Source: Escherichia phage ime09
DNA: 64,000 nucleotides
Sequence record: NC_019503.1
Direction: 5' to 3' (one strand)
The notes beneath the pieces were generated by a model. That model worked only from the letters and a program-made list of their open reading frames with translations. It did no database searches and was not told the DNA's origin. The translations under genes were made by a program, and so were the position numbers. This document shows positions 4,338 to 62,211 of this stretch, one piece after another (the first letter of the stretch is position 1; each line of letters starts with the position of its first letter).

Positions 4338-4365
4338 AAAAAGCCCCAACCTTTCGGTCGGGGCT
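4338..4365 (-). terminator. intrinsic terminator-like hairpin plus U-tract (end of tRNA / stable RNA transcript)
   Basis: Near-identical copy of the 3779-3806 hairpin (one loop substitution), followed by UUUUU. Confidence 0.6.
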
Positions 4366-4379
4366 AAGCCTTGCGGCAA

Positions 4380-4676
4380 CCTTGTCGGGGTTCCACCTGC
4401 TAAGGCAAGTGTTTGTACGAAACGCCGGGATTCGAACCCGGTTATTAAGCAGTTGACGCTACTCAATATTTTTAAAAGGCCATATCTCGACCATATCCGA
4501 ACGTTCCGTCAAAAACGCTACTCGGCTTACGGCAAAGATATTTCCTCGAATCGATAATTCTGTGCGCCGTTTCTGCTGTGATGTAAGGGGACATTAACAG
4601 ATCGTAAAGATTTGTTAATGCCAGTCCTTACCCAGGGAACATCAGTCCGACGACTTACCGGTAGCGACCCGGTTTC
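4380..4676 (-). ncRNA. structured stable-RNA region with a tRNA-like T-arm, possibly the counterpart of T4 species 1/2 (RNA C/D)
   Basis: No credible ORF; contains CCGGGTTCGAATCCCGG T-arm-like element on minus strand and several hairpins; ends at a hairpin plus U-tract terminator (4338-4365). Confidence 0.35.
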
Positions 4677-5027
4677 TTAATATTCTTTTAAAGCATCAAT
4701 CTGTTCACGGCGTTTACGCCATAAATCAATTACTTCATACGCAGATTCAGCATTTCGAATTGGACGGCATTTATATAAAGACTTGTGATTTTGATATTGC
4801 GTAGATAACGGAATTTTATCTAAAAGGTCTTTACGTTCAAAGTATTCGTAACCATCTAAGCCAAATGAACGATTTTTGAGAAATTGCCAATGACCATATT
4901 CGTTTTCGACATAAACATAATCCGCGTGTTGATAAAGCAAATTAATTACACGTTCAGAAATAACAGTGTCATTGTGATTAAAATAGAATGTCAAATCATG
5001 GACTACTAAATAAACATTACCTTTCAT
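4677..5027 (-). CDS. hypothetical protein between tRNA-Arg and the stable-RNA region
   Basis: 116 aa ORF immediately 3' of tRNA-Arg on the same strand. Confidence 0.45.
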   Translation of the reverse strand: MKGNVYLVVHDLTFYFNHNDTVISERVINLLYQHADYVYVENEYGHWQFLKNRSFGLDGYEYFERKDLLDKIPLSTQYQNHKSLYKCRPIRNAESAYEVIDLWRKRREQIDALKEY

Positions 5028-5043
5028 ATTTTCCTCACTTAAT

Positions 5044-5119
5044 TGGTCGAGGCAGTAGGGATCGAACCTACGACCTAGGACTTAGAAGGTCCTTGCTCTT
5101 CCTTCTGAGCTATGCCTCG
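5044..5119 (-). tRNA. tRNA-Arg (anticodon TCT), CCA encoded
   Basis: Cloverleaf folded by hand: acceptor CGAGGCA/TGCCTCG, anticodon stem AGGAC/GTCCT, loop CTTCTAA, T-loop TTCGATC. Confidence 0.8.
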
Positions 5120-5123
5120 TATT

Positions 5124-5198
5124 TGGCGGACGTGATAGGATTCGAACCTATAACCAATCGCTTAACAGGCGATCGCTCTGCCATTGAGCTACACATCC
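5124..5198 (-). tRNA. tRNA-Asn (anticodon GTT)
   Basis: Acceptor GGATGTG/CACGTCC with one G-U pair, anticodon loop CTGTTAA, T-arm ATAGG TTCGAAT CCTAT, CCA encoded. Confidence 0.7.
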
Positions 5199-5202
5199 AA
5201 AT

Positions 5203-5289
5203 TGGTGGGGAGTGATGGAGTCGAACCACCCGAGTCGCAATGACAATGGATTTACAGTCCACACCGCTACCTCTACGGGATAACTCCCC
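5203..5289 (-). tRNA. tRNA-Tyr (anticodon GTA), class II with long variable arm
   Basis: Acceptor GGGGAGT/ACTCCCC, anticodon loop CTGTAAA, long variable arm, T-loop TTCGACT; resembles bacterial tRNA-Tyr. Confidence 0.7.
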
Positions 5290-5302
5290 TTAATTCTTAA
5301 TT

Positions 5303-5377
5303 TGGTGGCCCTGGGTGGAATTGAACCACCATCTGGCGATTATGAGTCGCTTGCTTGAACCTTCCAGCTACAGGGCC
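5303..5377 (-). tRNA. tRNA with anticodon CAT (Met, or Ile if lysidine-modified as assumed for T4 tRNA-Ile)
   Basis: Acceptor GGCCCTG/CAGGGCC, anticodon loop CTCATAA, T-arm GGTGG TTCAATT CCACC, CCA encoded. Confidence 0.65.
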
Positions 5378-5378
5378 T

Positions 5379-5454
5379 TGGTGCTGATTGACGGAATCGA
5401 ACCGCCGACCTTCTCATTACAAGTGAGTTGCTCTACCTACTGAGCTAAATCAGC
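5379..5454 (-). tRNA. tRNA-Thr (anticodon TGT)
   Basis: Acceptor GCTGATT/AATCAGC, D-stem GCTC/GAGC, anticodon loop CTTGTAA, T-arm GGCGG TTCGATT CCGTC. Confidence 0.8.
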
Positions 5455-5459
5455 AAAAC

Positions 5460-5549
5460 TGGCGGAGGCGATAGGATTTGAACCTATGAGTCGCCGGAGC
5501 GACTGCCGGTTTTCAAGACCGGTGCATTAAACCACTCTGCCACGCCTCC
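5460..5549 (-). tRNA. tRNA-Ser (anticodon TGA), class II
   Basis: Acceptor GGAGGCG/CGCCTCC, anticodon loop CTTGAAA, long variable arm, T-arm ATAGG TTCAAAT CCTAT. Confidence 0.8.
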
Positions 5550-5551
5550 AG

Positions 5552-5625
5552 TCTCCATACAAGGATTTGAACCTTGGACCTCCTGATCCCAAATCAGGCG
5601 CTCTACCAAACTGAGCTACACGGAG
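5552..5625 (-). tRNA. tRNA-Pro (anticodon TGG), CCA not encoded
   Basis: Acceptor CTCCGTG/TATGGAG, D-stem GCTC/GAGC, anticodon loop TTTGGGA, T-arm CAAGG TTCAAAT CCTTG. Confidence 0.75.
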
Positions 5626-5635
5626 TAAATTAAAT

Positions 5636-5709
<74 letters not shown>

Positions 5710-5714
5710 AAATT

Positions 5715-5801
5715 TGGTGCGAGAAGTGGGACTCGAACCCACAAGGAAATCATTCCGCAGCATTTTAAGTGCTGTGCCTTTACCAATTTGGCCATTCTCG
5801 C
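5715..5801 (-). tRNA. tRNA-Leu (anticodon TAA), class II
   Basis: Acceptor GCGAGAA/TTCTCGC, anticodon loop CTTAAAA, long variable arm, T-arm GTGGG TTCGAGT CCCAC; one nt from tRNA-Gln. Confidence 0.8.
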
Positions 5802-5802
5802 G

Positions 5803-5875
5803 CTGGGAATAAAGGACTCGAACCTTTGCATCCTGGAATCAAAATCCAGTGCCTTACCAACTTGGCTAATTCCCA
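5803..5875 (-). tRNA. tRNA-Gln (anticodon TTG), CCA not encoded
   Basis: Acceptor TGGGAAT/ATTCCCA, anticodon loop TTTTGAT, T-arm AAAGG TTCGAGT CCTTT; first gene of the array. Confidence 0.8.
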
Positions 5876-5972
5876 ATTATTAACAAAGGCTCTTAAGCAA
5901 GAACCCTTGATGATAGAGGGTATTAATCAGTGCGATATGAGTTAATAATAACAAATAATTCTTAAAGCATAT

Positions 5973-6266
5973 TTACCATTTATGATAATACATATTTACG
6001 ATGCATTCAAGACCCAAAGGATTCTTGAAAATATCATATTCAAGAGGACCTTTTTCTGTTTCAATAAAGAAATCAAAATTTACTGTATTAAATTTACGGT
6101 CTTCCTTCACTAATTTAACTTGTGAAGATGAACGGTCAATGTAAACCTTTTCAACTTCAAAATATGTTAAAATGCCATAATCATCAATCAAGGCTTTAGC
6201 CGCGTCTTGATCATATTTATATCCATTTTCAATGGATGATACTTTCGCATAAAGAATCATTATCAA
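5973..6266 (-). CDS. hypothetical protein
   Basis: 97 aa ORF between tRNA array and IP-like gene; start overlaps stop of gene above. Confidence 0.45.
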   Translation of the reverse strand: MIMILYAKVSSIENGYKYDQDAAKALIDDYGILTYFEVEKVYIDRSSSQVKLVKEDRKFNTVNFDFFIETEKGPLEYDIFKNPLGLECIVNMYYHKW

Positions 6267-50095: not shown

Positions 50096-50573
50096 AGAAG
50101 TTTCTATTCCTAAAATGGGTCTTAAACATTATAACATTTTAAAAGATGTTAAAGGTCCTGATGAAAATTTAAAACTTCTTATTGATTCTATTTGTCCGAA
50201 TTTATCACCAGCAGAAGTTGATTTCGTTTCCATTCATTTATTGGAATTTAATGGAAAGATTAAATCTCGTAAAGAAATAGATGGTTATACTTATGACATT
50301 AATGATGTTTATGTATGCCAAAGATTAGAATTTCAATACCAAGGAAATACATTTTATTTTAGACCTCCTGGAAAATTTGAACAATTTTTAACGGTGAGCG
50401 ATATGTTATCCAAATGCTTGCTTAAGGTCAATGATGAAGTTAAAGAAATTAATTTTCTTGAGATGCCAGCATTCGTTTTAAAATGGGCAAATGATATTTT
50501 TACAACTTTAGCAATTCCTGGCCCTAATGGTCCAATAACCGGAATTGGCAATATTATTGGATTATTTGAATGA
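50040..50573 (+). CDS. 28: gp28 baseplate hub distal protein
   Basis: 177 aa, overlaps 3' end of gene 27 in another frame. Confidence 0.8.
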
Positions 50574-52342
50574 AAAAGCCACAAGAAATGCAAACGATGC
50601 GTAGAAAAGTTATTTCAGATAATAAATCAACACAGGAAGCGGCTAAATCCGCTTCCAACACTTTATCTGGACTTAACGATATATCTACGAAATTGGATGA
50701 TGCTCAAGCTGCTTCTGAATTAATTGCTCAAACTGTCGAAGAAAAATCGAATGAAATAATTGGAGCAATTGACAATGTAGAAAGCGCAGTGAGTGATACT
50801 ACTGCTGGTTCTGAGTTAATTGCTGAAACTGTCGAAATTGGCAACAATATTAATAAAGAAATCGGTGAATCACTCGGAAGTAAATTAGATAAATTAACGA
50901 GTTTACTAGAGCAAAAAATTCAGACAGCCGGAATTCAACAAACAGGAACTAGTTTAGCTACGGTTGAAAGCGCTATTCCTGTTAAAGTTGTTGAGGACGA
51001 TACAGCTGAATCCGTGGGTCCTTTATTACCAGCTCCTGAAGCAGTTAATAATGATCCTGATGCTGATTTTTTCCCTACCCCTCAGCCAGTTGAACCTAAA
51101 CAAGAATCGCCAGAAGAAAAACAGAAAAAAGACGCATTTAACTTAAAATTATCTCAAGCTTTAGATAAATTAACAAAGACTGTTGATTTCGGATTTAAGA
51201 AATCTATTTCAATTACTGATAAAATATCGAGCATGTTATTTAAGTATACCGTCAGTGCTGCTATTGAAGCTGCTAAAATGACTGCAATGATATTGGCTGT
51301 TGTTGTTGGAATAGATCTGCTGATGGTTCACTTTAAATATTGGTCAGATAAATTTTCACAGGCATGGGATTTATTTAGTACAGACTTTACTAAATTCTCT
51401 AGCGAAACCGGAACATGGGGTCCTTTATTACAGAGCATCTTTAGTTCTATCGATGAAATTAAAAAATTCTGGGAAGCGGGAGATTGGGGTGGTTTGACAG
51501 TAGCTATTGTAGAAGGGCTTGGAAAGGTTCTTTATAATTTAGGAGAACTTATTCAGCTTGGAATGGCTAAATTATCTGCTGCAATTCTTCGAGTCATTCC
51601 TGGCATGAAGGATACTGCTGATGAAGTAGAAGGAAGAGCGCTGGAAAATTTCCAAAATTCTACTGGAGCATCTCTCAATAAAGAAGACCAGGAAAAAGTA
51701 GCAAATTATCAAGATAAACGAATGAATGACGATCTTGGTCCAATAGCAAAAGGATTAGATAAAATTGCTAATTGGAAAACCCGTGCATCTAACTGGATTC
51801 GTGGCGTTGATAATAAAGAAGCACTAACTACCGACGAAGAACGTGCAGCAGAAGAAGAAAAATTAAAGCAACTTTCACCAGAAGAAAGAAAAAATGCTTT
51901 AATGAAGGCTAATGAAGCTCGGGCCGCGATGATTCGTTTTGAAAAATATGCTGATTCAGCTGATATGAGTAAAGACTCAACGGTTAAATCAGTTGAAGCT
52001 GCCTATGAAGACCTTAAAAAACGAATGGATGACCCGGATTTAAATAATTCACCGGCAGTTAAAAAAGAACTTGCTGCTAGATTTTCTAAAATTGATGCTA
52101 CTTATCAAGAGCTCAAGAAAAATCAGCCTAATGCCAAACCTGAAACTTCTGCTAAATCGCCAGAAGCAAAACAAGTCCAGGTAATAGAAAAGAACAAAGC
52201 ACAGCAAGCTCCTGTTCAACAAGCATCTCCTTCGATCAATAATACTAATAATGTTATTAAGAAAAATACTGTCGTTCATAATATGACACCTGTAACGAGC
52301 ACGACTGCTCCTGGTGTATTTGATGCGACTGGAGTTAATTAA
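50570..52342 (+). CDS. 29: gp29 tail tape-measure / baseplate hub protein
   Basis: 590 aa, order as T4. Confidence 0.9.
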   Translation: MKKPQEMQTMRRKVISDNKSTQEAAKSASNTLSGLNDISTKLDDAQAASELIAQTVEEKSNEIIGAIDNVESAVSDTTAGSELIAETVEIGNNINKEIGESLGSKLDKLTSLLEQKIQTAGIQQTGTSLATVESAIPVKVVEDDTAESVGPLLPAPEAVNNDPDADFFPTPQPVEPKQESPEEKQKKDAFNLKLSQALDKLTKTVDFGFKKSISITDKISSMLFKYTVSAAIEAAKMTAMILAVVVGIDLLMVHFKYWSDKFSQAWDLFSTDFTKFSSETGTWGPLLQSIFSSIDEIKKFWEAGDWGGLTVAIVEGLGKVLYNLGELIQLGMAKLSAAILRVIPGMKDTADEVEGRALENFQNSTGASLNKEDQEKVANYQDKRMNDDLGPIAKGLDKIANWKTRASNWIRGVDNKEALTTDEERAAEEEKLKQLSPEERKNALMKANEARAAMIRFEKYADSADMSKDSTVKSVEAAYEDLKKRMDDPDLNNSPAVKKELAARFSKIDATYQELKKNQPNAKPETSAKSPEAKQVQVIEKNKAQQAPVQQASPSINNTNNVIKKNTVVHNMTPVTSTTAPGVFDATGVN

Positions 52343-52350
52343 GGAATAAT

Positions 52351-53445
52351 ATGGCAATTGTTAAAGAAATAACTGCTGATTTAATTAAAAAGTCCGGTGA
52401 GAAAATTTCAGCCGGACAGAGTACTAAATCAGAAGTAGCAACTAAAACATACACTGCCCAGTTTCCAACTGGGCGTGCTAGTGGTAATGACACTACAGGG
52501 GACTTCCAGGTAACAGATCTATATAAGAATGGATTATTATTTACTGCATACAATATGTCATCTAGGGATTCTGGAAGTCTTAGATCGATGAGATCTAACT
52601 ACTCTTCTTCATCTTCGAGTATTTTAAGTACAGCTAGAAACACTATTAGTAGTACAGTATCAAAACTATCAAATGGATTAATATCAAACAATAATTCAGG
52701 AACAATAAGTAAAGCTCCTGTCGCAAACATTCTTTTACCGAGATCTAAATCTGACGTTGATACGTCATCACATAGATTTAATGATGTTCAAGAAAGTCTT
52801 ATCAGCAGAGGCGGAGGTACTGCTACTGGTGTGTTAAGTAATATTGCTTCAACTGCAGTATTTGGGGCACTGGAAAGTATAACACAGGGTATAATGGCTG
52901 ATAATAATGAACAGATTTATACTACAGCCAGAAGTATGTATGGTGGAGCTGAGAATAGAACTAAAGTGTTTACATGGGATTTGACTCCACGTTCAACAGA
53001 AGATTTAATGGCTATTATCAATATCTATCAATATTTTAACTATTTTTCTTATGGTGAAACGGGTAAATCTCAATATGCTGCTGAAATAAAGGGGTATTTA
53101 GATGATTGGTATCGTTCTACGTTAATTGAACCTTTATCTCCGGAAGACGCAGCTAAAAATAAAACACTATTTGAGAAAATGACATCGAGCTTAACTAACG
53201 TTCTAGTAGTTTCAAACCCGACAATTTGGATGGTGAAAAACTTTGGTGCAACATCTAAGTTTGATGGAAAAACGGAAATATTTGGCCCATGCCAAATACA
53301 GAGCATCAGATTTGATAAAACACCTAATGGTAACTTTAACGGATTAGCTATTGCTCCAAACCTCCCTAGTACATTTACTCTTGAGATTACTATGAGAGAA
53401 ATTATCACGTTAAACCGTGCTTCTTTATATGCGGGGACTTTTTAA
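52351..53445 (+). CDS. 48: gp48 baseplate tail-tube cap
   Basis: 364 aa, order as T4. Confidence 0.9.
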   Translation: MAIVKEITADLIKKSGEKISAGQSTKSEVATKTYTAQFPTGRASGNDTTGDFQVTDLYKNGLLFTAYNMSSRDSGSLRSMRSNYSSSSSSILSTARNTISSTVSKLSNGLISNNNSGTISKAPVANILLPRSKSDVDTSSHRFNDVQESLISRGGGTATGVLSNIASTAVFGALESITQGIMADNNEQIYTTARSMYGGAENRTKVFTWDLTPRSTEDLMAIINIYQYFNYFSYGETGKSQYAAEIKGYLDDWYRSTLIEPLSPEDAAKNKTLFEKMTSSLTNVLVVSNPTIWMVKNFGATSKFDGKTEIFGPCQIQSIRFDKTPNGNFNGLAIAPNLPSTFTLEITMREIITLNRASLYAGTF

Positions 53446-54410
53446 TGTATTCTTTAGAGGAATTTAATAATCAAGCAATAAACGCAGATTTCCAACGTAA
53501 TAATATGTTTAGCTGCGTTTTTGCGACAACTCCATCAACTAAAAGCTCTTCGTTGATAAGTTCAATTAGCAACTTTTCTTATAATAACTTGGGTCTAAAT
53601 TCAGATTGGTTAGGATTGACTCAAGGCGATATTAATCAGGGAATTACCACGCTAATTACCGCTGGCACACAAAAACTGATAAGAAAATCAGGGGTTAGTA
53701 AATATCTTATTGGTGCCATGAGTCAACGTACAGTTCAAAGTTTATTGGGCTCATTTACAGTTGGTACATATTTAATTGACTTCTTTAACATGGCATATAA
53801 CTCATCTGGGTTGATGATATATTCTGTAAAAATGCCAGAGAATAGATTATCCTATGAAACTGACTGGAACTATAACTCTCCTAATATTCGTATAACTGGG
53901 AGAGAATTAGACCCTTTGGTTATTTCATTTAGAATGGATTCAGAAGCTTGTAACTATCGTGCAATGCAAGACTGGGTTAACGCTGTTCAAGACCCAGTAA
54001 CTGGACTGCGTGCTTTGCCGCAAGATGTCGAGGCAGATATTCAGGTTAATCTTCATGCTCGTAATGGATTACCTCATACTGCAGTGATGTTCACCGGATG
54101 CATTCCAGTGTCAGTGAGCGCTCCTGAGTTATCATATGATGGAGATAACCAAATAACTACATTTGATGTTACTTTTGCGTATAGAGTCATGCAGGCTGGG
54201 TCGGTTGATAGACAAGCTGCGCTTGAGTGGCTTGAATCTGCTGCTATAAACGGTATTCAAAGCGTTCTCGGAAATAGTGGAGGTGTTACTGGATTATCTA
54301 ATTCGCTTTCACGACTTAGTAGATTAGGAGGAACTGCTGGAAGCATTTCAAACATTAATACTATGACGGGAATTGTCAATTCGCAAAGTAAAATATTAGG
54401 AGCAATATAA
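53445..54410 (+). CDS. 54: gp54 baseplate tail-tube initiator
   Basis: 321 aa, order as T4. Confidence 0.9.
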   Translation: MYSLEEFNNQAINADFQRNNMFSCVFATTPSTKSSSLISSISNFSYNNLGLNSDWLGLTQGDINQGITTLITAGTQKLIRKSGVSKYLIGAMSQRTVQSLLGSFTVGTYLIDFFNMAYNSSGLMIYSVKMPENRLSYETDWNYNSPNIRITGRELDPLVISFRMDSEACNYRAMQDWVNAVQDPVTGLRALPQDVEADIQVNLHARNGLPHTAVMFTGCIPVSVSAPELSYDGDNQITTFDVTFAYRVMQAGSVDRQAALEWLESAAINGIQSVLGNSGGVTGLSNSLSRLSRLGGTAGSISNINTMTGIVNSQSKILGAI

Positions 54411-54414
54411 CAAT

Positions 54415-54440
54415 GGGGACCGAAAGGTCCCCATATTTTT
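54415..54440. terminator. bidirectional hairpin between convergent gene 54 and the 54439-54729 ORF
   Basis: GGGGACCGAAAGGTCCCC followed by ATATTTTTATTT. Confidence 0.55.
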
Positions 54441-54729
54441 ATTTACGGAATGAAATAAAAGCAGCAACTGAAGCAACTAGACTGTCTTCAATATAAACTT
54501 CAATTTTTACCGGAGCTTCTGACTCAAATTTACCTGTTACTACACCCTGGAAAATGCTTTCAGTCTGTTCTGGCTTTAAAAAATTTTCAGAAGGAAAAAT
54601 TCCGAACTTTTTATCTGTTCCAAAAATTTTGATAAATTCATCATAAACTGCTTCATTAAAAGCGTTATCAGCAGGAATAACGCCTTCAACTACAAGTTCT
54701 TGACCTAAAAAGCGTAAAGAAGATTTCAT
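54439..54729 (-). CDS. hypothetical protein (alt.-3-like position)
   Basis: 96 aa ORF 3' of the alt genes. Confidence 0.5.
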   Translation of the reverse strand: MKSSLRFLGQELVVEGVIPADNAFNEAVYDEFIKIFGTDKKFGIFPSENFLKPEQTESIFQGVVTGKFESEAPVKIEVYIEDSLVASVAAFISFRK

Positions 54730-54789
54730 TTTGTGTTCCTCATGTTATGTCAGTAAAACTATTGTAACACAACACGAGGGACTTGTAAA

Positions 54790-56847
54790 CTACATCTTGA
54801 ACTTTTTAGACATTCCGTTGATGTTAACCAAAGAAGCCAAGATTTGAGAAACTTCGTTTTCCTCTTCTTTTGATTCTTCTACAAGGAATTGATTAAACCC
54901 AGCCATTGGACGAACTTCACCAGTTTCCATTAGATGATCGCCATCATATACCGATTCTTCTAATTGTTCAGAAGGAGGAACGATTGTGCCTTCGATTAGA
55001 TACTTGTTATAAGCAGTTTCTTTCATCATGTACGTGCTTACTTTATTAATCTTCAACAAAATTCCACGCGGTAGAATAACTTCAGCTTCTGATGGAAATC
55101 CTGATAAATGACCTGGAACGATAACTTTGATTCGCTCAGCCCCTTTAATTACCATACCTACGCTAGTTTCAGCATCTTCATTAGCATATGCAGAATGACT
55201 ACCCATATGCATTAAATCTTCAGCATCAACAGAACCTTCTCCTTCACCAGAAAATACTGCACCGGAATCATCTAGAGCCATATAGTTTTTACCATGCTCA
55301 CCGAAGATATTTGGTTTAAGCGATGTTGATACGAAGTTCTTGAAATAGAACATTTTATTTTCAATATTATGGCGTAAAGTTTTAAAAGTAACTTCTTGTC
55401 CACGATAAAGCGTAGTTCCTGGAGGAAGAACTGATCCTTTTGCGAATGCAGAATCCAGCGTCTCGATGTGTTTAATAGCTCGTTCCATGTATTCTTCACG
55501 GGTAGAATCTGGTTTACCCAAGAGGAACGAGTTCATTTCAACATATGAATCTGCACAATAATCTTCAATTACATCAGACTCAGCCTGAGTCAGTCCTTTT
55601 GGAGTTACTTCGGTGCTTGCGTATTCATATGCCTGAGCAGCAGATTCATTAATCAATTTATAAATGCCATTCATGACAAATTGAATAATAGCTACTTTTT
55701 CGTCTGGCGTGGCTTTAGAACCTTTAACTAAATCATTGATAATTTTCTTAATAACATCAAAGCTATTAGAAATATTAATGTCAGCGAGATCGCTCAAAAT
55801 TTTATCGGTTTTATAATCAAAAAATTCTTTATTCTTTAAATATTCTTGAGAACCTTGATGTGTTATATCGCTCTGCAGTCTGATAGACGGATCACGTAAA
55901 CGTGCATGGGCCAATGCAATATGATTTCGGAAGCTTTCTAGTTCATAATCGTTAGATTTAAAACGAGAAGCACTTCTCATACCACCGATAGCTCCTTTGC
56001 CGAAGTTTGAACCAATCTGAATAACGCCAGAGTTCATTGGTCCTTCTGCTTTATATACCGGAACTTTAGATTCAAACTCTTGATATTTCTTGGCAGCGAA
56101 GCTATCACCCTGAAGTGAAGCATCGACAGTAGAATATTGAGCTTGTGCTGCTAATCGACGACTAATTTTAGTTTTCTGAATAACAGCTTGATCCGTGCGC
56201 TTATCATTTTCTAAGGCAATAGAAGCAGCAACAGCAACAGCTTTAGGAACAGCATTACCTGTTTTAACATCTACATAAACATCACCAACCTTTGATTCAA
56301 CTTTTGTGAATAACTCAGTTGAAATAGGAGGTACACCTGGAATGTCTTCTAAATTGGCATTTTTACGGTAAACCATAATATATGCATACTTTTTATCATA
56401 ATCCCAGATTTCCTTTAAAAGAACATATCGACCTGCTCCTTTAGTACGTACTAAACGGTCAGCAATAACTTGCATTTGACGAGCAGCGCCATTTGTTTTA
56501 CTTTTTAGTACGCGGAATAGGCATGCGTCAATTTTATACTGTTTCATTGTTTGAAGAGCAGTATCAAAAACCGCATTAATGACACCAATTGGATTTCCAC
56601 CCAAGTTTTTAAGTTTAACGAGCGATAGTTTCTCATTGACACCTATCATTACGATATGCATCATTTTATCGCCTGGCTTAACGTTTTTATTTGTATCACC
56701 GCCAGAGGTGTATGTACAAAATCTAAATCCAGGAAGCACACTTTCTTCGCCGGCTTGAATAGCAAAAATTTGAGGTATTTTATGCTTAGGATTTAAGTTA
56801 ACAACCGGCGCCGAAGCGCCGTCAAATAATTCTGTAATAAGTTCCAT
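54790..56847 (-). CDS. Alt-like mono-ADP-ribosyltransferase paralog
   Basis: 685 aa; N-terminal ~230 aa closely similar to the upstream alt product (MELITELFD..); C-terminal R / STS / E-x-E motifs (..LYRGQ.., ..FVSTSL.., ..SEAEVILPRG..). Confidence 0.85.
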   Translation of the reverse strand: MELITELFDGASAPVVNLNPKHKIPQIFAIQAGEESVLPGFRFCTYTSGGDTNKNVKPGDKMMHIVMIGVNEKLSLVKLKNLGGNPIGVINAVFDTALQTMKQYKIDACLFRVLKSKTNGAARQMQVIADRLVRTKGAGRYVLLKEIWDYDKKYAYIMVYRKNANLEDIPGVPPISTELFTKVESKVGDVYVDVKTGNAVPKAVAVAASIALENDKRTDQAVIQKTKISRRLAAQAQYSTVDASLQGDSFAAKKYQEFESKVPVYKAEGPMNSGVIQIGSNFGKGAIGGMRSASRFKSNDYELESFRNHIALAHARLRDPSIRLQSDITHQGSQEYLKNKEFFDYKTDKILSDLADINISNSFDVIKKIINDLVKGSKATPDEKVAIIQFVMNGIYKLINESAAQAYEYASTEVTPKGLTQAESDVIEDYCADSYVEMNSFLLGKPDSTREEYMERAIKHIETLDSAFAKGSVLPPGTTLYRGQEVTFKTLRHNIENKMFYFKNFVSTSLKPNIFGEHGKNYMALDDSGAVFSGEGEGSVDAEDLMHMGSHSAYANEDAETSVGMVIKGAERIKVIVPGHLSGFPSEAEVILPRGILLKINKVSTYMMKETAYNKYLIEGTIVPPSEQLEESVYDGDHLMETGEVRPMAGFNQFLVEESKEEENEVSQILASLVNINGMSKKFKM

Positions 56848-56850
56848 GAT

Positions 56851-58947
56851 TTATCCTTGAACGAACTTGTAAGGCATGTTTGTAATATCTATGCAAGACG
56901 CAATAATTCCAAGAGATGATTCTACTTTTTGTTTAACATTTGATGAAACAAATGATGCAAAGTCAACTCTGTCTTCTATTTCAATATCACCTGTCATTGC
57001 AACTACTTCACCAGTTTCCATTAGACGGTCACCGTCATAAATTACTGATTCGGTGAGTTCTTCCGTAGTCATAACTTCAGCTTGAATGAGTTTTGTATTA
57101 TTAGATGTTGTTCCGTCGTTATTAGAAGCATCAGTTATTTTATTGACTTTGACCATCAATCCGCGTGGTAGAATAACTTCAGCTTCTGTTGCTATTCCGA
57201 GACTTCCTGGATATACAACATTAACTTTATGAGCTCCATCAATTGCCCATCCTATTTGAACTTTAACGTATTCAGGATTTTCTTTATACGCTCTTATTTC
57301 ATTTGGATTAATAGTTATTCCTTCTTCATTTTTATCAACTGTCAATTCATTACGAGCTTCTGGTTCTAAAAGACCAATACCAGCATGTGTAATTCCAAAA
57401 CGTCCAAAAATGATAGGAGTTAAAGAAGTAGATACAAAATTTCTGAAATAGAACACTTTATTTTTAACTAGTGCTTCGTATATAGGAGCAGTCATGCTTT
57501 GAGCACGATAAACTGTAATGCCTTCTGGTATACGGTCACCGTTTTCAAAAGCTGAATCTAAGTTATTTATAGCAGATTCAATTTCTTTTTCACTCATTAC
57601 ATCATATCGTTCTGGATTGTAACGACCCAAAAGAAGATTATTGATGTCAGTATATCCTGAACCACAATACTCTCTAATGCCGCGCTTTTGTGATGGAGTA
57701 TATTTAGAACCATCACGGGCAATAGTAATATCAATCATTGGACCTGCACCAATTCCAGAAAAGCTATAAATCATTCGTTTGAGGAATTTAGTTTTTGCTG
57801 CGTTCCAGGAATTTTTAGTTATTTCTTCCCAGACTTCATCTGGCTGTCCTTTACGGGTTTTATTATGTTTATCAAGCCAATTATCTTTATATTCTTCAAA
57901 GAATTGATTAACGGCTGCTGCGTATTTCTCCAAACATTTTATTGAAGTAGTTGGTTCATTTTTAATCGCATTAAGAATTACATCTTTAATTTTTTCAGAA
58001 ACTTCATTAACCTCACTTTTTGAAAAGAATTTATAATCATAGTGAAGTTCATCTGCAGTTCCTTCGGCAATGATTTTTGCTGCCTTAGTTTTAGAAGCTA
58101 ATGAATTAATTCCAAGCTTCATTTCTTCTGCTTCGGGAATTAAAGGAGCTGTAGCAGGTTTATTGAAATTAGCTGCGGTAGATTCATACTTTTGGAATAA
58201 TTCACTTTCAAATCTAGAAGATTCCAATGACTGACTTTGTGCAATTGCTCTGCGGGAAATTTTAACTTTAACGATTACAGCTTGGTCAGAACGTTTATCG
58301 TTTTCTTGTGCAATAGATGCTGCAATTGCCTCATTTTTAGTTACTTGAGCTCCAGTATCTTTATTGATATAAACATCACCGACCTTCGATTCAACTTTAG
58401 TAAAGAGCTCGGTACTGATTTCCGGAACTCCTGGAATGTCTTCTAATGATACATTTTTGCGATGTATAAGAATATATGCATACTTTTTATCGTAATCCCA
58501 GAGTTCCTTAAGAAGGACGTATCTGCCGCCTGAACGGCTGCGGATAAGTCTATCAGCAATAACTTGAATTTGTCGAGCTTGACCAGCAGTTTTAGACTTA
58601 AGAATACGAAGCATACAGGCATCAATTTTATACTGACGCATTGTTTGCATTGCAACAGTAAAAACTGAATTGATGTAATTAATTGGGCTTGGACCGAGAC
58701 CTTTCAATTTAGCAATTGAACCTTTAGCAGTTAATGTAAAAGGAACAATATGCATCATTTTATCACCCATCTTTAAATCGCGATTAGTATCACCTCCAGA
58801 TGTATAGGTACATAAACGAAAGCCTGGTTGTTCAATTGCGTCATCAACATGAACTGAAAAAATTTGCGGTATTTTCTTCTTTGGATTTAAGTTTGTAATC
58901 GGAAGAGTAGTATCTTCGTCAAATAATTCTGTAATGAGTTCCATCAT
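56851..58947 (-). CDS. alt: Alt ADP-ribosyltransferase (packaged, injected enzyme in T4)
   Basis: 698 aa (684 from second Met); MMELITELFDEDTTLPITNL..; R / STS / E-x-E motifs (..VYRAQ.., ..FVSTSL.., ..TEAEVILPRG..); TATAAATA late promoter upstream. Confidence 0.9.
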   Translation of the reverse strand: MMELITELFDEDTTLPITNLNPKKKIPQIFSVHVDDAIEQPGFRLCTYTSGGDTNRDLKMGDKMMHIVPFTLTAKGSIAKLKGLGPSPINYINSVFTVAMQTMRQYKIDACMLRILKSKTAGQARQIQVIADRLIRSRSGGRYVLLKELWDYDKKYAYILIHRKNVSLEDIPGVPEISTELFTKVESKVGDVYINKDTGAQVTKNEAIAASIAQENDKRSDQAVIVKVKISRRAIAQSQSLESSRFESELFQKYESTAANFNKPATAPLIPEAEEMKLGINSLASKTKAAKIIAEGTADELHYDYKFFSKSEVNEVSEKIKDVILNAIKNEPTTSIKCLEKYAAAVNQFFEEYKDNWLDKHNKTRKGQPDEVWEEITKNSWNAAKTKFLKRMIYSFSGIGAGPMIDITIARDGSKYTPSQKRGIREYCGSGYTDINNLLLGRYNPERYDVMSEKEIESAINNLDSAFENGDRIPEGITVYRAQSMTAPIYEALVKNKVFYFRNFVSTSLTPIIFGRFGITHAGIGLLEPEARNELTVDKNEEGITINPNEIRAYKENPEYVKVQIGWAIDGAHKVNVVYPGSLGIATEAEVILPRGLMVKVNKITDASNNDGTTSNNTKLIQAEVMTTEELTESVIYDGDRLMETGEVVAMTGDIEIEDRVDFASFVSSNVKQKVESSLGIIASCIDITNMPYKFVQG

Positions 58948-58967
58948 ATCCTCTCTAGTGTTTATTC

Positions 58968-58975
58968 TATTTATA
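58968..58975 (-). promoter_or_regulatory. late promoter box TATAAATA (alt)
   Basis: Exact TATAAATA on minus strand about 21 nt upstream of alt ATG. Confidence 0.55.
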
Positions 58976-58996
58976 AAATTAAAGGCCCGAAGGCCT

Positions 58997-59185
58997 TTAA
59001 TAATCTATTGGTAAGAGAGTACGGTATATTTCAAACTTTGGACCTTTTTCGTAGGCATCAAATGTTTCTGTGAATTTATTATAAGCATACGCATCTATAA
59101 ATTCAATCATAATTTGTGATACAGAAGTAGAAACATCTCCACCTTCTTTTTGAGCCACGACAATTGTTTCTAAATAAGCTTTCAT
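58997..59185 (-). CDS. hypothetical protein
   Basis: 62 aa ORF between gene 30 and alt. Confidence 0.45.
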   Translation of the reverse strand: MKAYLETIVVAQKEGGDVSTSVSQIMIEFIDAYAYNKFTETFDAYEKGPKFEIYRTLLPIDY

Positions 59186-60645
59186 AGACCAGTTACCTCA
59201 TGAAAATCACCAAATACATCCTCGAATGTATTAGCTTTAGTTTTATCTTCACGTAAACGAATCGCAATCGGAAGAAATAATTTAACGTAATCAGTGCGGC
59301 CATCAGATTTTAACCAACCGTTGCATTCGCACTCTAGAATTTTTCCAATATAATAATTTTGGTTTTCCATAATGCGAGTACGGTCAAGTTCATGTGATTT
59401 TACACCGGCTTTATCTTTTAAGCCTGAACCAGCATTTACTTTAATTTTTCCACACTCTGATTCAAGAATAAATCCACCTGCTTTGGTAGGGTCTTTACGG
59501 TGAGGATAAATTCCTACAATTTTTAAATCAACATCAATTACTTCTTTAAATTTATAAAGATTTTTTGAACGAGCATTTTCCCACAATCCATCGGTATTTT
59601 TGAGAATAATACCTTCAAGACCTTGGTCAATATACTTTTTATAAATTACCTTAGCTTCATCTAGGTTATTTACTACCTGGTTTTCAATTAAAATTACTTT
59701 ATCATATCCTGATGTCATTTGTTCTAGTTTAGAAAAACGCACATCATATTTTAAACGAAACGCCGGAAGACCATATATTTCTACCAACGGAACATAATCC
59801 CAGACCTGAAACTTCATGCATTGAGCTTCTTTTTCAGAAATGGTTCCTTTTAAGGATTTATTGGCGATTCCATTAGAAGTAGTACGAGATTCCGCTACTT
59901 CGGCGAATTCTTTAGCTTTACTAATTTCAGGATAAGCATCAAAAAGAAAATCTAGGCCTTCTGGTTCCTTTTTAACTTGCTCGTGGTATACCAATTCGCC
60001 ATCAATTAACACACCTTCTGGATGAATCTGGCGGGCTTCAGCAGTCATTTTGATTAATTCTTCCTTAAGAAGATCTAATCCTAGATATTCATTACCAGCT
60101 CGTGATAAAAGACGAACATCATCTAATTCATCGCCTCTAACTTCAGCAAAACACCGGGCTCCATCTGCTTTTAACTGTGCAAAGGCTGGAAATTTGATAT
60201 TCTTACTAATGCCCTTTTCATCATAAGAACTTGCCAGCATTTGAGGTTGTTCAGGAATTAAACCTGGCCAAACTTTGTTTGCAATAGATACTGAAGCACC
60301 GCATTCAAGGTCTCGCATCATCACTCGACGCAAAACTTCAACATCATCCTTTTTACCATCGGTGATATATCCAGTTAATTCCTCAATTGCAGCATTTCCG
60401 GTCAATTTCCGAGTAGCTAACGTGAATTCAATGAAGTCAAGCATATCGGTAATAGTCAGCATTCCAAAACTCTGGGTAGCAATATCAGGTTTAGGCCATT
60501 TCTTGATATAATACTGTAACCCACGAGAATAAGTCAGACGATATACCCGTTTAAGCAATTCATTATCTTTATTCTTTTCAAGAATTGCTTGCTTCTGCTT
60601 AGTTGATCCAATAGATGCTATTTCATTCAGAATTTTAAGAATCAT
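59182..60645 (-). CDS. 30: ATP-dependent DNA ligase
   Basis: 487 aa; adenylation motif KADGAR; MILKILNEIASIGSTKQKQAILEKNKDNELLKRVY.. recognised as T4 DNA ligase. Confidence 0.95.
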   Translation of the reverse strand: MILKILNEIASIGSTKQKQAILEKNKDNELLKRVYRLTYSRGLQYYIKKWPKPDIATQSFGMLTITDMLDFIEFTLATRKLTGNAAIEELTGYITDGKKDDVEVLRRVMMRDLECGASVSIANKVWPGLIPEQPQMLASSYDEKGISKNIKFPAFAQLKADGARCFAEVRGDELDDVRLLSRAGNEYLGLDLLKEELIKMTAEARQIHPEGVLIDGELVYHEQVKKEPEGLDFLFDAYPEISKAKEFAEVAESRTTSNGIANKSLKGTISEKEAQCMKFQVWDYVPLVEIYGLPAFRLKYDVRFSKLEQMTSGYDKVILIENQVVNNLDEAKVIYKKYIDQGLEGIILKNTDGLWENARSKNLYKFKEVIDVDLKIVGIYPHRKDPTKAGGFILESECGKIKVNAGSGLKDKAGVKSHELDRTRIMENQNYYIGKILECECNGWLKSDGRTDYVKLFLPIAIRLREDKTKANTFEDVFGDFHEVTGL

Positions 60646-60911
60646 TGCTCATCCTTCAAAGTTTGGTTTACAGCTCTATTATAAATCAATTCATCATTAA
60701 GCTCAGGCAAAGACTTATGATATGTAGTTCTAACTTTATTTCCTTGCATCCAGTGCTTGACGTAAATGAAACCTTGCTCTACACATTTTTTAAAAATTCG
60801 TTCGTCTTTTTGAGCTCGGAATTCTGGATTGCATCTAAAAAATTGATTTACGTGACCGTAATCACGTGTAGTATTACCTTCATTTTCATAAATAGTGTGA
60901 ACGACAAACAT
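60642..60911 (-). CDS. hypothetical protein (30.1 position)
   Basis: 89 aa ORF overlapping stop of next gene. Confidence 0.5.
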   Translation of the reverse strand: MFVVHTIYENEGNTTRDYGHVNQFFRCNPEFRAQKDERIFKKCVEQGFIYVKHWMQGNKVRTTYHKSLPELNDELIYNRAVNQTLKDEQ

Positions 60912-61750
60912 TAGAATGCTCCTTGGAAAATATTATCACCACAAGTAGGTCTATTATACAAATACTCTATGCCACCAGGTTTAATATAGTTCCATGTCTG
61001 AAACGGATGTGTCTGATATGGATGATATAGATGATTATAAGGATTAAACCCAGGCGTTCTCCAGGTAGTGTTCCAACGAAAAGAATCGTTTTTAACCATC
61101 TTCTCAATTAAATCTTTTATAGCTTTTTCACTATCAAAACTTTCTTTATTTTCCTTCGGCGAAAAAAGCTTATTTTCTACATCATTCCATGTATAAACTC
61201 GCTGCGCAGTTTTTGGAATATTGTCACGCTCTCCTCGAGCCATCCAATAAACAGGAACATTTAATATTTCACTAGCATGATCGCAGTGATGAGCGAGATC
61301 GTCAATATAACAAATTACGTTATATTTCTCTTTTGCCTTTTTGAACAACTCTTCTTTTGAAGAATCATGACCGCACATCATTACTTCCGAGAAGGCACCA
61401 GGAAAAAGAGCATTCAAATTAAATTGACGATTCAACAGAGCGTCAATAGAATCACCCAATGCTGTAACAGCTACAAAATTATAATCTTCTTTTAATTTGT
61501 TAATTACACACAGGGCATCTTTATATGGAGACAAGTAACGAATAAAATCTGATCGATTGTATTTTTCAATTAGCTTGACACCAAGTTCTTCATCACAGTT
61601 AAATAGTTTACCTGGAGAAATAAATTTCTCATCTTGGATCATTTTTAAAATATGTTCTAACGGAAGATTATATTTCTGAGCAAAATAAGGAAGACCTGAT
61701 TGCCAGCTTAAACATACTCCATCAATATCAGTTAAAATAGTAGGCTTCAT
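60911..61750 (-). CDS. HAD-superfamily hydrolase-like protein (30.2 position)
   Basis: 279 aa; N-terminal ILTDIDGV matches HAD motif I (DxDG). Confidence 0.55.
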   Translation of the reverse strand: MKPTILTDIDGVCLSWQSGLPYFAQKYNLPLEHILKMIQDEKFISPGKLFNCDEELGVKLIEKYNRSDFIRYLSPYKDALCVINKLKEDYNFVAVTALGDSIDALLNRQFNLNALFPGAFSEVMMCGHDSSKEELFKKAKEKYNVICYIDDLAHHCDHASEILNVPVYWMARGERDNIPKTAQRVYTWNDVENKLFSPKENKESFDSEKAIKDLIEKMVKNDSFRWNTTWRTPGFNPYNHLYHPYQTHPFQTWNYIKPGGIEYLYNRPTCGDNIFQGAF

Positions 61751-62211
61751 AGAGAGTCTCTTAATAGGTTTAACACATCAATAAATTCAGCTTCGGTTAG
61801 TATTGTATCATCTTTTGTTAGACCACTAGCCATGCTGTGCTTCAAAACTTTTCCTTTCGAGGCTTGTAATGCATCGCGAAAGCCCCTGTTTTGGAACGCT
61901 GCTTCAAAATATGCATTTGTGTATAATTCTTTCCACGCTGGAGAGTATCTTGAAAACGGAACTCCAAGCCAGAAGAGGGTCCCACGGTCCTGAGCTCTAG
62001 CATAAGCTCGTCCAGCTTGTTGGGCAGCAAGCCCGGATAACCCAAATATACGACGTTGCTGTTCAACATTTTTCACCTTACACCCTTGGAGGAATCCTTC
62101 GAGACCTCCAAATTGGATACCATCCATAACAAAAGGCCATTGGGCGAAATTACTTAGTGCGCATGATGGCCATCTAAAATTGCTTCTTATCTCTAACTCA
62201 GACATTTTCAA
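61747..62211 (-). CDS. NADAR (YbiA/DUF1768)-like protein, candidate ADP-ribose-processing enzyme (30.3 position)
   Basis: 154 aa; ..CALSNFAQWPFVMDGIQF.. resembles the SNFxxWP..DG motif I recall from E. coli YbiA-type NADAR domains. Confidence 0.45.
   Translation of the reverse strand: MKMSELEIRSNFRWPSCALSNFAQWPFVMDGIQFGGLEGFLQGCKVKNVEQQRRIFGLSGLAAQQAGRAYARAQDRGTLFWLGVPFSRYSPAWKELYTNAYFEAAFQNRGFRDALQASKGKVLKHSMASGLTKDDTILTEAEFIDVLNLLRDSL

What the first reader, a model, noticed from the sequence alone, without database searches (positions are those of the whole stretch)
54790..58975. Two tandem Alt-type ADP-ribosyltransferase genes with shared N-terminus and divergent middle
Two adjacent minus-strand ORFs (698 and 685 aa) both start MELITELFD, share a well-conserved N-terminal ~230 aa (the region that in T4 Alt directs packaging into the head), and both carry R / STS / E-x-E catalytic signatures near the C-terminus. 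Their central regions are strongly diverged although stretches of DNA still align. Only the upstream copy has a late TATAAATA box; the second follows 3 nt after its stop, so they are probably co-transcribed. A pair of injected ARTs with different middles suggests different host targets.
Basis: partly seen in the sequence, partly recalled or inferred. Interest (0 to 1): 0.6.

Follow-up and report, generated by a model that had tools for sequence, protein, structure and literature searches.

The report
Two tandem Alt ADP-ribosyltransferase genes
This T4-like phage carries two intact, adjacent copies of the gene for the injected Alt enzyme; that is the normal, already annotated state in most relatives (T2, T6), and T4 itself keeps only a broken stub of the second copy.

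Summary
Two minus-strand genes, alt-1 (56851..58944, 697 aa from the likelier second ATG) and alt-2 (54790..56847, 685 aa), are 41% identical overall. Their first 238 aa are 68% identical. Both keep the R / S-T-S / E-x-E catalytic residues.

Both also keep the two T4 prohead-protease (gp21) cleavage motifs mapped in T4 Alt: ITE-6, and L-x-E about 55-65 aa from the C-terminus. Both genes are under strong purifying selection (dN/dS 0.03 and 0.045 against T2).

The arrangement is not new:
- About 355-400 phage records, including T2 and T6, carry the same pair, usually annotated "Alt-like (x2)".
- Papers from 2006, 2014 and 2026 describe alt duplications; the 2026 paper offers the same "functional divergence" reading.

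Small additions from this work:
- T4's alt.-1/alt.-2 ORFs are a ~96% identical remnant of alt-2, broken by a 1-nt frameshift and a 1,699-bp deletion between 9-bp repeats.
- At least four independent alt-1::alt-2 hybrid single genes exist, two of them in cultured isolates (PST, ECML-134).
- The pair is older than the Tequatrovirus/Dhakavirus split.

That alt-2 is packaged and has different targets is plausible but untested. The claim that the N-terminal 230 aa direct packaging has no published support.

The parts
56851..58944 (-). alt-1: orthologue of T4 alt, 697 aa plus stop. The ORF finder's first ATG is at 58947; the second ATG at 58944 is the likely start.
   Evidence: 72% identity to T4 Alt, full-length match to phrog_802, Pfam PF03496. 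The start choice rests on Shine-Dalgarno spacing and the T2 annotation.
54790..56847 (-). alt-2: full-length paralogue, 685 aa plus stop. It is the intact form of the gene that survives in T4 as alt.-1/alt.-2.
   Evidence: At least 95% identical in about 395-400 phage records. dN/dS against T2 is 0.045.
58968..58975 (-). T4-type late promoter box TATAAATA, 23 nt upstream of the alt-1 ATG.
   Evidence: The window holds 23 TATAAATA matches against 9.4 expected by chance.
58981..58998 (-). Hairpin AAAGGCC-TTCG-GGCCTTT followed by AATTTT, directly after the alt.1 stop. It is a likely terminator of upstream transcripts, and the late promoter follows it.
   Evidence: Sequence read directly. The consensus scan did not report it.
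56848..56858 (-). alt-1/alt-2 junction: AAGGA Shine-Dalgarno (56858-56854) overlapping the last alt-1 codons, TAA stop (56853-56851), 3-nt spacer ATC.
   Evidence: The same 3-nt spacer is present in T2.
58231..58944 (-). Alt-1 N-terminal domain, aa 1-238, including the gp21 cleavage motif ITE-6 (58935-58927).
   Evidence: All but one of these residues are identical to T4 Alt.
56134..56847 (-). Alt-2 N-terminal domain, aa 1-238 (Pfam PF26846 Tevenvirinae_ADPRT), including ITE-6 (56838-56830).
57691..58230 (-). Alt-1 central region, aa 239-418. This is a 'T2-type' allele, only ~30% identical to the T4 allele.
   Evidence: It is 66.7% identical to the same stretch of Dhakavirus WG01 ORF200.
55588..56133 (-). 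Alt-2 central region, aa 239-420. It is all-helical in the model and has no detectable sequence similarity to the Alt-1 central region.
   Evidence: At least 90% identical in 400 phage records. 46.7% identical to WG01 ORF199.
57049..57690 (-). Alt-1 ART domain, aa 419-632: R480 (57507-57505), STS (57432-57424), EAE (57186-57178). It ends at the gp21 motif LTE-632 (57057-57049).
54955..55587 (-). Alt-2 ART domain, aa 421-631: R482 (55404-55402), STS (55329-55321), EAE (55089-55081). It ends at the gp21-type motif LEE-631 (54963-54955).
56854..57048 (-). Alt-1 C-terminal propeptide, 65 aa, acidic. It is homologous to the 63 aa removed from T4 Alt.
   Evidence: PMC5694885.
54793..54954 (-). Alt-2 predicted C-terminal propeptide, 54 aa. 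The YDGDxLMETGE and terminal KF motifs are conserved.
   Evidence: The model is disordered here. Against T2 this stretch has 0 non-synonymous and 8 synonymous changes.
56500..56508 (-). CTAAAAAGT: upstream copy of the 9-bp direct repeat at which the T4 lineage deleted 1,699 bp of alt-2.
54801..54809 (-). CTAAAAAGT: downstream copy of the same repeat, 12 nt before the alt-2 stop.
57564..57571 (-). Second TATAAATA on the coding strand inside alt-1 (codons A-I-N-N). It is a possible extra late start for alt-2, or a chance match.
   Evidence: About 0.15 such matches are expected by chance in one 2.1-kb strand.

Best explanation
The region holds two intact late genes. Both encode paralogous arginine-type (R-S-ExE) mono-ADP-ribosyltransferases of the T-even Alt family.

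alt-1 is the orthologue of T4 alt. alt-2 is the full-length gene whose decayed remnant is annotated in T4 as alt.-1/alt.-2. The duplication is old: positional orthologues of both copies exist in Dhakavirus.

Proposed mechanism, with shown and inferred steps marked:
1. Both genes are transcribed from the TATAAATA late promoter upstream of alt-1. alt-2 is translated from its own AAGGA site 3 nt after the alt-1 stop. (The sequence features are shown; co-transcription is inferred.)
2. Both proteins enter the prohead core and are trimmed by the gp21 protease at ITE-6 and at an L-x-E site near the C-terminus. This would leave mature proteins of about 70 kDa (Alt-1) and 69 kDa (Alt-2). (The motifs are shown; cleavage and packaging of Alt-2 are inferred by homology to T4 Alt.)
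3. Both are injected with the DNA and ADP-ribosylate host proteins on arginine. (Inferred.)
4. The shared N-terminal domain and the terminal propeptides carry the common 'virion' role. The unrelated central helical regions and the different loops before ExE give the two enzymes different substrate ranges. (Inferred; this is the weakest step.)

The tandem pair is recombinationally dynamic. Lineages have lost alt-2 by frameshift plus deletion (T4), or have fused the pair into one alt-1::alt-2 hybrid gene by unequal crossing-over in the shared N-terminal coding region.
For: Family and catalytic residues:
- Pfam PF03496 matches both proteins, and both match phrog_802 over the full length.
- R / STS / ExE are invariant across T4 Alt, Alt-1 and Alt-2, and across 56 diverse relatives.
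- Mutating the ExE glutamate inactivates T4 Alt (PMC11404850).

Processing:
- T4 Alt is cut at ITE-6 and LTE-619, giving 68.2 kDa (PMC5694885). My calculation from those two sites reproduces 68.2 kDa.
- The homologous sites are ITE-6 / LTE-632 in Alt-1 and ITE-6 / LEE-631 in Alt-2.
- E6 and the C-terminal L-x-E...YDGD block are near-invariant in the family.

Both genes are functional:
- Against T2, dN/dS is 0.03 for alt-1 and 0.045 for alt-2. The alt-2 comparison has 76 synonymous and 14 non-synonymous differences.
- The Alt-2 central region is at least 90% identical in 400 phage records.

Expression signals: late box, Shine-Dalgarno sites and 3-nt spacer.

T4 remnant:
- T4 alt.-1/alt.-2 DNA is ~96% identical to the first ~350 nt of alt-2. 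It carries a 1-nt deletion and then jumps across a CTAAAAAGT repeat to the last 20 nt of alt-2.
- The PHROG families that align with the first ~57 and next ~56 residues and are the length of T4 Alt.-1 and Alt.-2 (61 and 67 aa) score Alt-2 at E 1e-40 and Alt-1 at E 1e-21.

Hybrid genes: single alt-1::alt-2 genes occur with clean crossovers at codons ~51, ~100, ~152 and ~183. Two are in metagenome contigs and two are in the isolates PST and ECML-134.

Age of the duplication: WG01 ORF200 is 66% identical to Alt-1 and ORF199 is 49% identical to Alt-2, in the same gene order.
Against: - There is no direct evidence that Alt-2 is in virions, is cleaved, is active, or has targets different from Alt-1. 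I found no proteomic or biochemical paper on it.
- Loss of alt-2 in the T4 lineage (about 20% of Tequatrovirus records), and replacement of alt-1's body in the hybrid phages, show that neither body is indispensable.
- The role of the N-terminal domain is unknown. Its only structural neighbours are GNAT-fold proteins at modest Z, 5-7.3.
- An internal TATAAATA in alt-1 leaves open a separate alt-2 transcript.
Confidence: 0.8

Rival explanations
1. Redundant dose. Alt-2 is packaged and active but modifies essentially the same host proteins as Alt-1 (RNA polymerase alpha and others). The pair would then simply raise or buffer the injected activity, and the central-region divergence would be neutral drift in a spacer.
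For: The catalytic motifs are the same and both are the ExE (arginine) type. Phages with one hybrid gene or with only alt-1 are viable. T4 Alt is known to be non-essential (PMC9026906).
Against: The Alt-2 central region is strongly conserved (at least 90% in 400 records; dN/dS 0.107 against T2). It has kept 47% identity to its Dhakavirus positional orthologue while showing no similarity to Alt-1's central region. That pattern fits two separately constrained functions, not a drifting spacer. The loops between STS and ExE also differ.
Confidence: 0.25
2. Alt-2 is not an injected effector. It would act in the cytoplasm late in infection, or serve mainly as a structural component of the prohead core.
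For: There are no virion data for Alt-2. Alt has been called a core protein as well as an enzyme (PMC11404850).
Against: Alt-2 keeps the same N-terminal propeptide (MELITE|), the homologous C-terminal cleavage motif and the propeptide block. In natural hybrids the Alt-1 N-terminus drives an Alt-2 body as the phage's only Alt. Its catalytic residues are under purifying selection.
Confidence: 0.1
3. One copy is a decaying pseudogene or an assembly duplication artefact.
For: T4 shows that alt-2 can decay.
Against: Both reading frames are open and all motifs are intact. dN/dS is 0.03-0.045. The same pair is present in hundreds of independent complete genomes, including T2 and T6. The copies are only 68% identical in DNA, with a longest exact match of 22 nt, so an assembly artefact is not credible.
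Confidence: 0.02

Closest known systems
T4 Alt (gp alt, NAD+--arginine ADP-ribosyltransferase; NP_049811)
   Same: alt-1 is its orthologue. It sits in the same position between alt.1 and the alt.-N genes and has a late promoter. Residues 1-245 are all but identical and the C-terminal ~80 residues are >80% identical. It has the same R/STS/ExE residues and the same ITE-6 and LTE cleavage motifs.
   Different: The central region and parts of the ART domain are a different allele. Identity is about 14-40% per 30-column block across alignment columns 271-420, ~30% by tblastn, and 72% overall. The window allele is the T2 type and is closer to Dhakavirus WG01 ORF200 (66%) than T4 Alt is (47%).
T4 alt.-1 / alt.-2 ORFs (NP_049810, NP_049809)
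   Same: Their DNA is ~96% identical to the first ~350 nt of the window's alt-2, in the same position directly after alt.
   Different: In T4 the gene is broken by a 1-nt deletion, which splits it into two small ORFs, and by a 1,699-bp deletion between CTAAAAAGT repeats. The T4 record describes them as 'an old duplication of the first part of gene alt'. The data here show instead a truncated full-length paralogue.
Annotated 'Alt-like RNA polymerase ADP-ribosyltransferase (x2)' pairs in T2, T6, RB32, RB51, Shfl2, HY01, 6phi13/SHFML-11 and others
   Same: The same two genes at 96-100% protein identity, with the same order and the same 3-nt spacer. PMC13600099 reports 43.29% identity between the paralogues and proposes functional divergence.
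   Different: Nothing material. The window is one more member.
Tandem Alt arrays in other Tevenvirinae (Dhakavirus WG01 with three genes; JS98, Bp7, Ac42, ZZ1, 44RR, RB49)
   Same: One to three Alt-like genes at the same locus. WG01 ORF200 and ORF199 are positional orthologues of Alt-1 and Alt-2 (PMC1524935; PMC4177764).
   Different: Copy number differs, and ZZ1 has a split gene. Sequences are 33-66% identical.
C3-like / VIP2 / iota-family bacterial R-S-E ADP-ribosyltransferase toxins (Vis, C3bot, Certhrax, CDTa)
   Same: The fold of the catalytic domain and the R / STS / ExE active site.
   Different: The delivery route differs: phage head rather than secretion or a binary toxin. Alt proteins have extra N-terminal and central domains and protease-removed propeptides. 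Sequence identity is only 14-24%.

Membership tests
T-even Alt family (Pfam PF26846 Tevenvirinae_ADPRT + PF03496; phrog_802) | R-S-ExE catalytic signature of arginine-specific mono-ADP-ribosyltransferases | tested here: met
   Alt-1 has R480, S505-T-S507 and E587-A-E589. Alt-2 has R482, S507-T-S509 and E587-A-E589. These align with T4 Alt R478, S503-505 and E574-x-E576.
T-even Alt family (Pfam PF26846 Tevenvirinae_ADPRT + PF03496; phrog_802) | ADP-ribosyltransferase fold of the C-terminal domain | tested here: met
   [not shown]
T-even Alt family (Pfam PF26846 Tevenvirinae_ADPRT + PF03496; phrog_802) | Family-specific N-terminal domain of about 240 aa | tested here: met
   PF26846 is listed for the Alt-2 cluster and its relatives. 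phmmer finds only 69 representative clusters among 1.84 billion proteins. Most are 600-712 aa with the domain at the N-terminus, and of eight spot-checked by Pfam five have an ART domain at the C-terminal end.
T-even Alt family (Pfam PF26846 Tevenvirinae_ADPRT + PF03496; phrog_802) | gp21 prohead-protease processing at both ends (ITE-6 and LTE-619 in T4) | tested here: met
   The motifs are present at homologous positions in both proteins: ITE-6 plus LTE-632 in Alt-1, and ITE-6 plus LEE-631 in Alt-2. Actual cleavage cannot be tested here.
T-even Alt family (Pfam PF26846 Tevenvirinae_ADPRT + PF03496; phrog_802) | Late gene located between gene 30/alt.1 and alt.-3/gene 54 | tested here: met
   Synteny with T4 and T2. 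TATAAATA at 58968-58975.
T-even Alt family (Pfam PF26846 Tevenvirinae_ADPRT + PF03496; phrog_802) | About 40 copies packaged in the head and injected with the DNA | not testable with these tools
   Known for T4 Alt only (PMC9026906). No virion proteomics for Alt-2 was found.
T-even Alt family (Pfam PF26846 Tevenvirinae_ADPRT + PF03496; phrog_802) | [quoted passage not shown] | not testable with these tools
   This is a biochemical property. It is established for T4 Alt (PMC5512222, PMC11404850) and unknown for Alt-2 and for the T2-type Alt-1 allele.
GNAT (acyl-CoA N-acyltransferase) fold, considered for the shared N-terminal domain | GNAT alpha/beta fold | tested here: inconclusive
   [not shown]
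GNAT (acyl-CoA N-acyltransferase) fold, considered for the shared N-terminal domain | Acetyl-CoA pyrophosphate-binding motif Q/R-x-x-G-x-G/A between strand 4 and helix 3 | tested here: inconclusive
   A glycine-rich loop (family consensus LKGGLGxDP; G83 and P86 near-invariant) precedes helix 86-103. It does not fit the motif strictly. No Pfam GNAT match was found.

The most novel reading that the evidence does not exclude
Alt-2 is a second head-packaged, injected ADP-ribosyltransferase whose target spectrum differs from classical Alt, for example a host-takeover or counter-defence function. The T4 lineage has lost it.

If so, decades of T4 work on 'alteration' have described a reduced version of what most T-even phages (T2, T6 and about 80% of Tequatrovirus genomes) inject. 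Some T2/T6-versus-T4 differences in host range or defence sensitivity could trace to it.

A further possibility is that the shared N-terminal domain, which has only GNAT-fold structural neighbours, is not merely a packaging handle but a second ligand-binding or enzymatic module.
Probability: 0.35. Interest if true: 0.55.

Novelty: already known. Interest (0 to 1): 0.28.

Why it matters
The gene pair itself is ordinary. It is in T2, T6 and most Tequatrovirus genomes, and it has been noted in print.

What keeps some value is that the second enzyme has, as far as I could find, never been studied, while phage ADP-ribosyltransferases are again of interest. The evidence here suggests it is a real, conserved, probably injected effector:
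- strong purifying selection on the whole gene;
- both prohead-protease cleavage motifs conserved at the homologous positions;
- an orthologue in another genus.

The reference phage T4 lacks it because of a simple frameshift and deletion. That gives a clean genetic handle. One could restore alt-2 in T4 or delete it in T2.

The natural alt-1::alt-2 hybrids show that the N-terminal domain is interchangeable. That is useful for anyone engineering cargo into T4-type heads.

Tried and rejected
- PDB sequence search with Alt-2 found no hit at E <= 0.01. NCBIfam had no family for either protein.
- Profile-profile comparison of the two central regions gave probability 1.6%. I cannot say whether they are diverged homologues or a replacement. 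Both map to the same positions of phrog_802.
- Literature searches for any characterisation of the second Alt (virion proteomics, targets, T2/T6 work) returned only genome-description papers.
- I considered that the hybrid alt genes in metagenome contigs were assembly chimeras. I rejected this for three reasons. The longest exact alt-1/alt-2 match is 22 nt. The crossovers sit at four different positions. Two hybrids are in complete genomes of the cultured phages PST and ECML-134.
- I considered that alt-2 is a pseudogene. dN/dS and the conservation across records reject this.
- I considered that the T4 deletion is a laboratory artefact of T4. I rejected this because the same junction is present in about 20% of Tequatrovirus records, including many recent isolates.
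- I considered that the N-terminal domain is a general packaging module fused to other effectors. This is not supported. Among the 69 representative clusters, most full-length members are 600-712 aa, and five of eight spot-checked have an ART domain at the C-terminal end. P0183, P0184 and P0186 have no Pfam match and were not pursued.
- The GNAT lead for the N-domain stays inconclusive.
- T4 Alt 'E577A' in PMC11404850 is off by one from my count of the NC_000866 protein, where the ExE glutamates are E574 and E576. I assume it is the second ExE glutamate but could not verify this.

Full report
**What the window is.** Positions 50570-62211 are collinear with T4 genes 29, 48 and 54 on the + strand. 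On the - strand they match alt.-3, alt, alt.1, 30 (DNA ligase), 30.1, 30.2 and 30.3. The 4.8-kb stretch around the finding is 97.6-98.4% identical to many Tequatrovirus genomes. The window therefore comes from a T-even phage.

**Checking the observation.**
- Two minus-strand ORFs are present: 56851..58947 (698 aa) and 54790..56847 (685 aa).
- The first begins MMELIT. The AGAGAGG ribosome-binding site is 2 nt from the first ATG and 5 nt from the second. T2 is annotated from the second ATG. The product is therefore most likely 697 aa and starts MELITELFD, like the second gene.
- BLASTP of the pair gives 41% identity over the full length, E 7e-158.
- The first 238 residues are 68% identical. The next ~180 residues fall to 13-20% per 30-column block and give no profile-profile signal. 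Identity rises again around the catalytic motifs and in a C-terminal YDGDxLMETGE block.
- At DNA level the first 690 nt align at 68%. Beyond that, only three patches of 43-57 nt align, at the STS motif, the ExE motif and the YDGD block.
- Catalytic residues are intact in both: Alt-1 R480 / S505-T-S507 / E587-A-E589 and Alt-2 R482 / S507-T-S509 / E587-A-E589. Pfam PF03496 matches both.
- The alt-1 stop, a 3-nt spacer and the alt-2 ATG are as described, and AAGGA lies 6 nt upstream of that ATG.
- A TATAAATA late box lies 23 nt upstream of alt-1, just after a hairpin that follows alt.1.
- One addition: a second TATAAATA lies on the coding strand inside alt-1 (57564-57571), 717 nt upstream of alt-2. 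It may be a chance match.

**What the two genes are.**
- alt-1 is the orthologue of T4 alt, at 72% identity. Residues 1-245 are almost identical to T4 Alt and the C-terminal ~80 residues are more than 80% identical.
- Its central region is a different allele, only ~30% identical to T4's. This 'T2-type' allele occurs at 90% identity or more in 318 phage records.
- alt-2 is the full-length version of what T4 annotates as alt.-1 and alt.-2. T4 DNA from the alt stop onward is ~96% identical to the first ~350 nt of the window's alt-2.
- In T4 that stretch carries a 1-nt deletion in an A-run, which creates the stop and restart that split it into two small ORFs. It then jumps across a 9-bp direct repeat, CTAAAAAGT (window 56500-56508 and 54801-54809), to the last 20 nt of alt-2 and the alt.-3 promoter. 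That is a 1,699-bp deletion.
- The two small PHROG families that align with Alt residues ~1-57 and ~62-118, and whose lengths (61 and 67 aa) equal those of T4 Alt.-1 and Alt.-2, score Alt-2 far better than Alt-1: E 1e-40 against 1e-21.
- The T4 GenBank note calls these ORFs 'an old duplication of the first part of gene alt'. The comparison here shows a truncated full-length paralogue instead.

**How common the pair is.**
- The whole 4.8-kb query is at least 80% covered in 355 phage records, many annotated 'Alt-like ... (x2)'.
- The Alt-2 N-domain is at least 95% identical in 395 records, and its central region at least 90% identical in 400.
- T2 has the same 697 + 685 aa genes with the same 3-nt spacer. 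T6 is annotated with two.
- The T4-type deletion junction is fully covered in roughly one fifth of about 500 Tequatrovirus records, including many recent isolates. It is therefore a natural lineage state and not a laboratory artefact.
- In Dhakavirus WG01 three Alt-like genes sit at the same locus. ORF200 is 66% identical to Alt-1 and ORF199 is 49% identical to Alt-2, in the same order. The duplication therefore predates the split of these genera.
- Published notes of alt duplications exist for RB49, 44RR and T4 (PMC1524935). They also exist for ZZ1, Ac42, JS98 and Bp7 (PMC4177764).
- For Tequatrovirus 6phi13 and SHFML-11, PMC13600099 reports 43.29% identity and the same 'functional divergence' interpretation.

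**Evidence on how the proteins work.**
- T4 Alt is a prohead core protein of about 40 copies. It is ejected into the cell and is non-essential (PMC9026906).
- It is cut by gp21 at ITE-6 and at LTE-619, giving a 68.2-kDa mature protein (PMC5694885). Computing the mass from those two sites reproduces 68.2 kDa.
- The homologous sites are present in both window proteins. Alt-1 has ITE-6 and LTE-632, for a mature mass of 70.1 kDa. Alt-2 has ITE-6 and LEE-631, for 69.1 kDa.
- E6 and the C-terminal L-x-E...YDGD block are near-invariant across 56 diverse family members.
- Against T2, alt-1 has dN/dS 0.03 and alt-2 has 0.045. The predicted C-terminal propeptides show only synonymous changes.
- An AlphaFold2 model of Alt-2 (pLDDT 74.6) has four parts. 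These are an alpha/beta N-domain (residues 12-235), a helical region (250-470), an ART domain (470-628) and a disordered C-terminal tail.
- The ART domain matches Vis, C3, Certhrax, CDTa and VIP2.
- These data make it likely that Alt-2 is packaged, processed and active like Alt. This is inference by homology. I found no proteomic or biochemical work on it.

**The shared N-terminal domain.**
I found no support for that. The literature documents the two terminal propeptides, and a ~10-aa targeting sequence in the internal proteins.
- The domain is specific to this family. phmmer against 1.84 billion representative proteins finds only 69 clusters. Most are 600-712 aa with the domain at the N-terminus, and five of eight members checked by Pfam have an ART domain at the C-terminal end.
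- Modelled alone it is confident, with pLDDT 89.5. Its only structural neighbours are GNAT-fold proteins at modest Z (5-7.3, about 105 of 238 residues aligned). That is a lead, not an assignment.

**A dynamic locus.**
- Some close relatives have a single 684-686-aa gene between alt.1 and alt.-3. Its 5' end is alt-1 and the rest is alt-2.
- Informative-site analysis shows clean single crossovers at four different positions. They fall at codons ~51 and ~183 in two metagenome contigs, ~100 in Yersinia phage PST and ~152 in Escherichia phage ECML-134.
- This is the signature of repeated unequal recombination between the tandem N-terminal coding regions.
- It also shows that the two N-domains are functionally interchangeable. 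That fits a common virion-related role for the N-domain, with specificity residing elsewhere.

**Verdict.** The two-gene arrangement is real and both copies look functional. However, it is the ordinary, annotated and published state of most T-even phages. The packaging role assigned to the N-terminal 230 aa is not established, and 'different targets' remains untested. Novelty: already known. The modest additions are listed in the summary and are not repeated here. Interest is low to moderate, because Alt-2 is an unstudied, probably injected enzyme that T4 happens to lack.

Noticed in passing
window 5044-5875 (-): The window has a cluster of 10 tRNA genes: Arg-tct, Asn-gtt, Tyr-gta, Met/Ile-cat, Thr, Ser, Pro, Gly, Leu and Gln. 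From memory, T4 is described with 8, so Asn and Tyr would be extra here. The cluster coincides with the GC-rich bin 4001-6000.
   Followed up: no
window 54761-54789 (-) and 54413-54434: alt.-3 (54439-54729, DUF5498) has its own sigma-70 / T4-early-like promoter, TTTACA-17 nt-TACAAT, with TG before the -10 box. The promoter starts immediately after the alt-2 stop codon. The gene ends at a 9-bp-stem bidirectional hairpin shared with the convergent gene 54. alt.-3 is therefore probably not part of the late alt operon.
   Followed up: partly
window 57564-57571 (-): A second TATAAATA lies on the coding strand inside alt-1, in codons A-I-N-N, 717 nt upstream of alt-2. It could be an internal late promoter or a chance match in AT-rich DNA.
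   Followed up: no
L005:3051-5111 (Yersinia phage PST), L006:2701-4761 (ECML-134), L003:5001-7055, L004:5001-7061: Single alt-1::alt-2 hybrid genes replace the pair in these phages and contigs. The crossovers fall at four different codons: ~100, ~152, ~183 and ~51.
   Followed up: yes
L007 (Dhakavirus WG01 KU878968) 1-5856: Three tandem Alt-like genes (ORF201, ORF200, ORF199) sit at the same locus. ORF200 is 66% identical to the window's Alt-1 and ORF199 is 49% identical to Alt-2. The third copy, ORF201, was not analysed.
   Followed up: partly
window 57691-58230 (-) versus L001 (T4 alt): Alt-1 exists in at least two very different central-region alleles within Tequatrovirus. The T2 type seen here is at least 90% identical in 318 records. 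The T4 type is ~30% identical to it. The flanks are almost identical. At least one phage (SHFML-26) combines the T4-type allele with an intact alt-2.
   Followed up: partly
[not shown]
   Followed up: partly
representative proteins P0183 (485 aa), P0184 (541 aa), P0186 (221 aa): These are distant matches to the Alt N-domain (E 3e-8 to 2e-6) with no Pfam ART domain detected. They could be N-domains joined to something else, or just divergent or fragmentary proteins.
   Followed up: no
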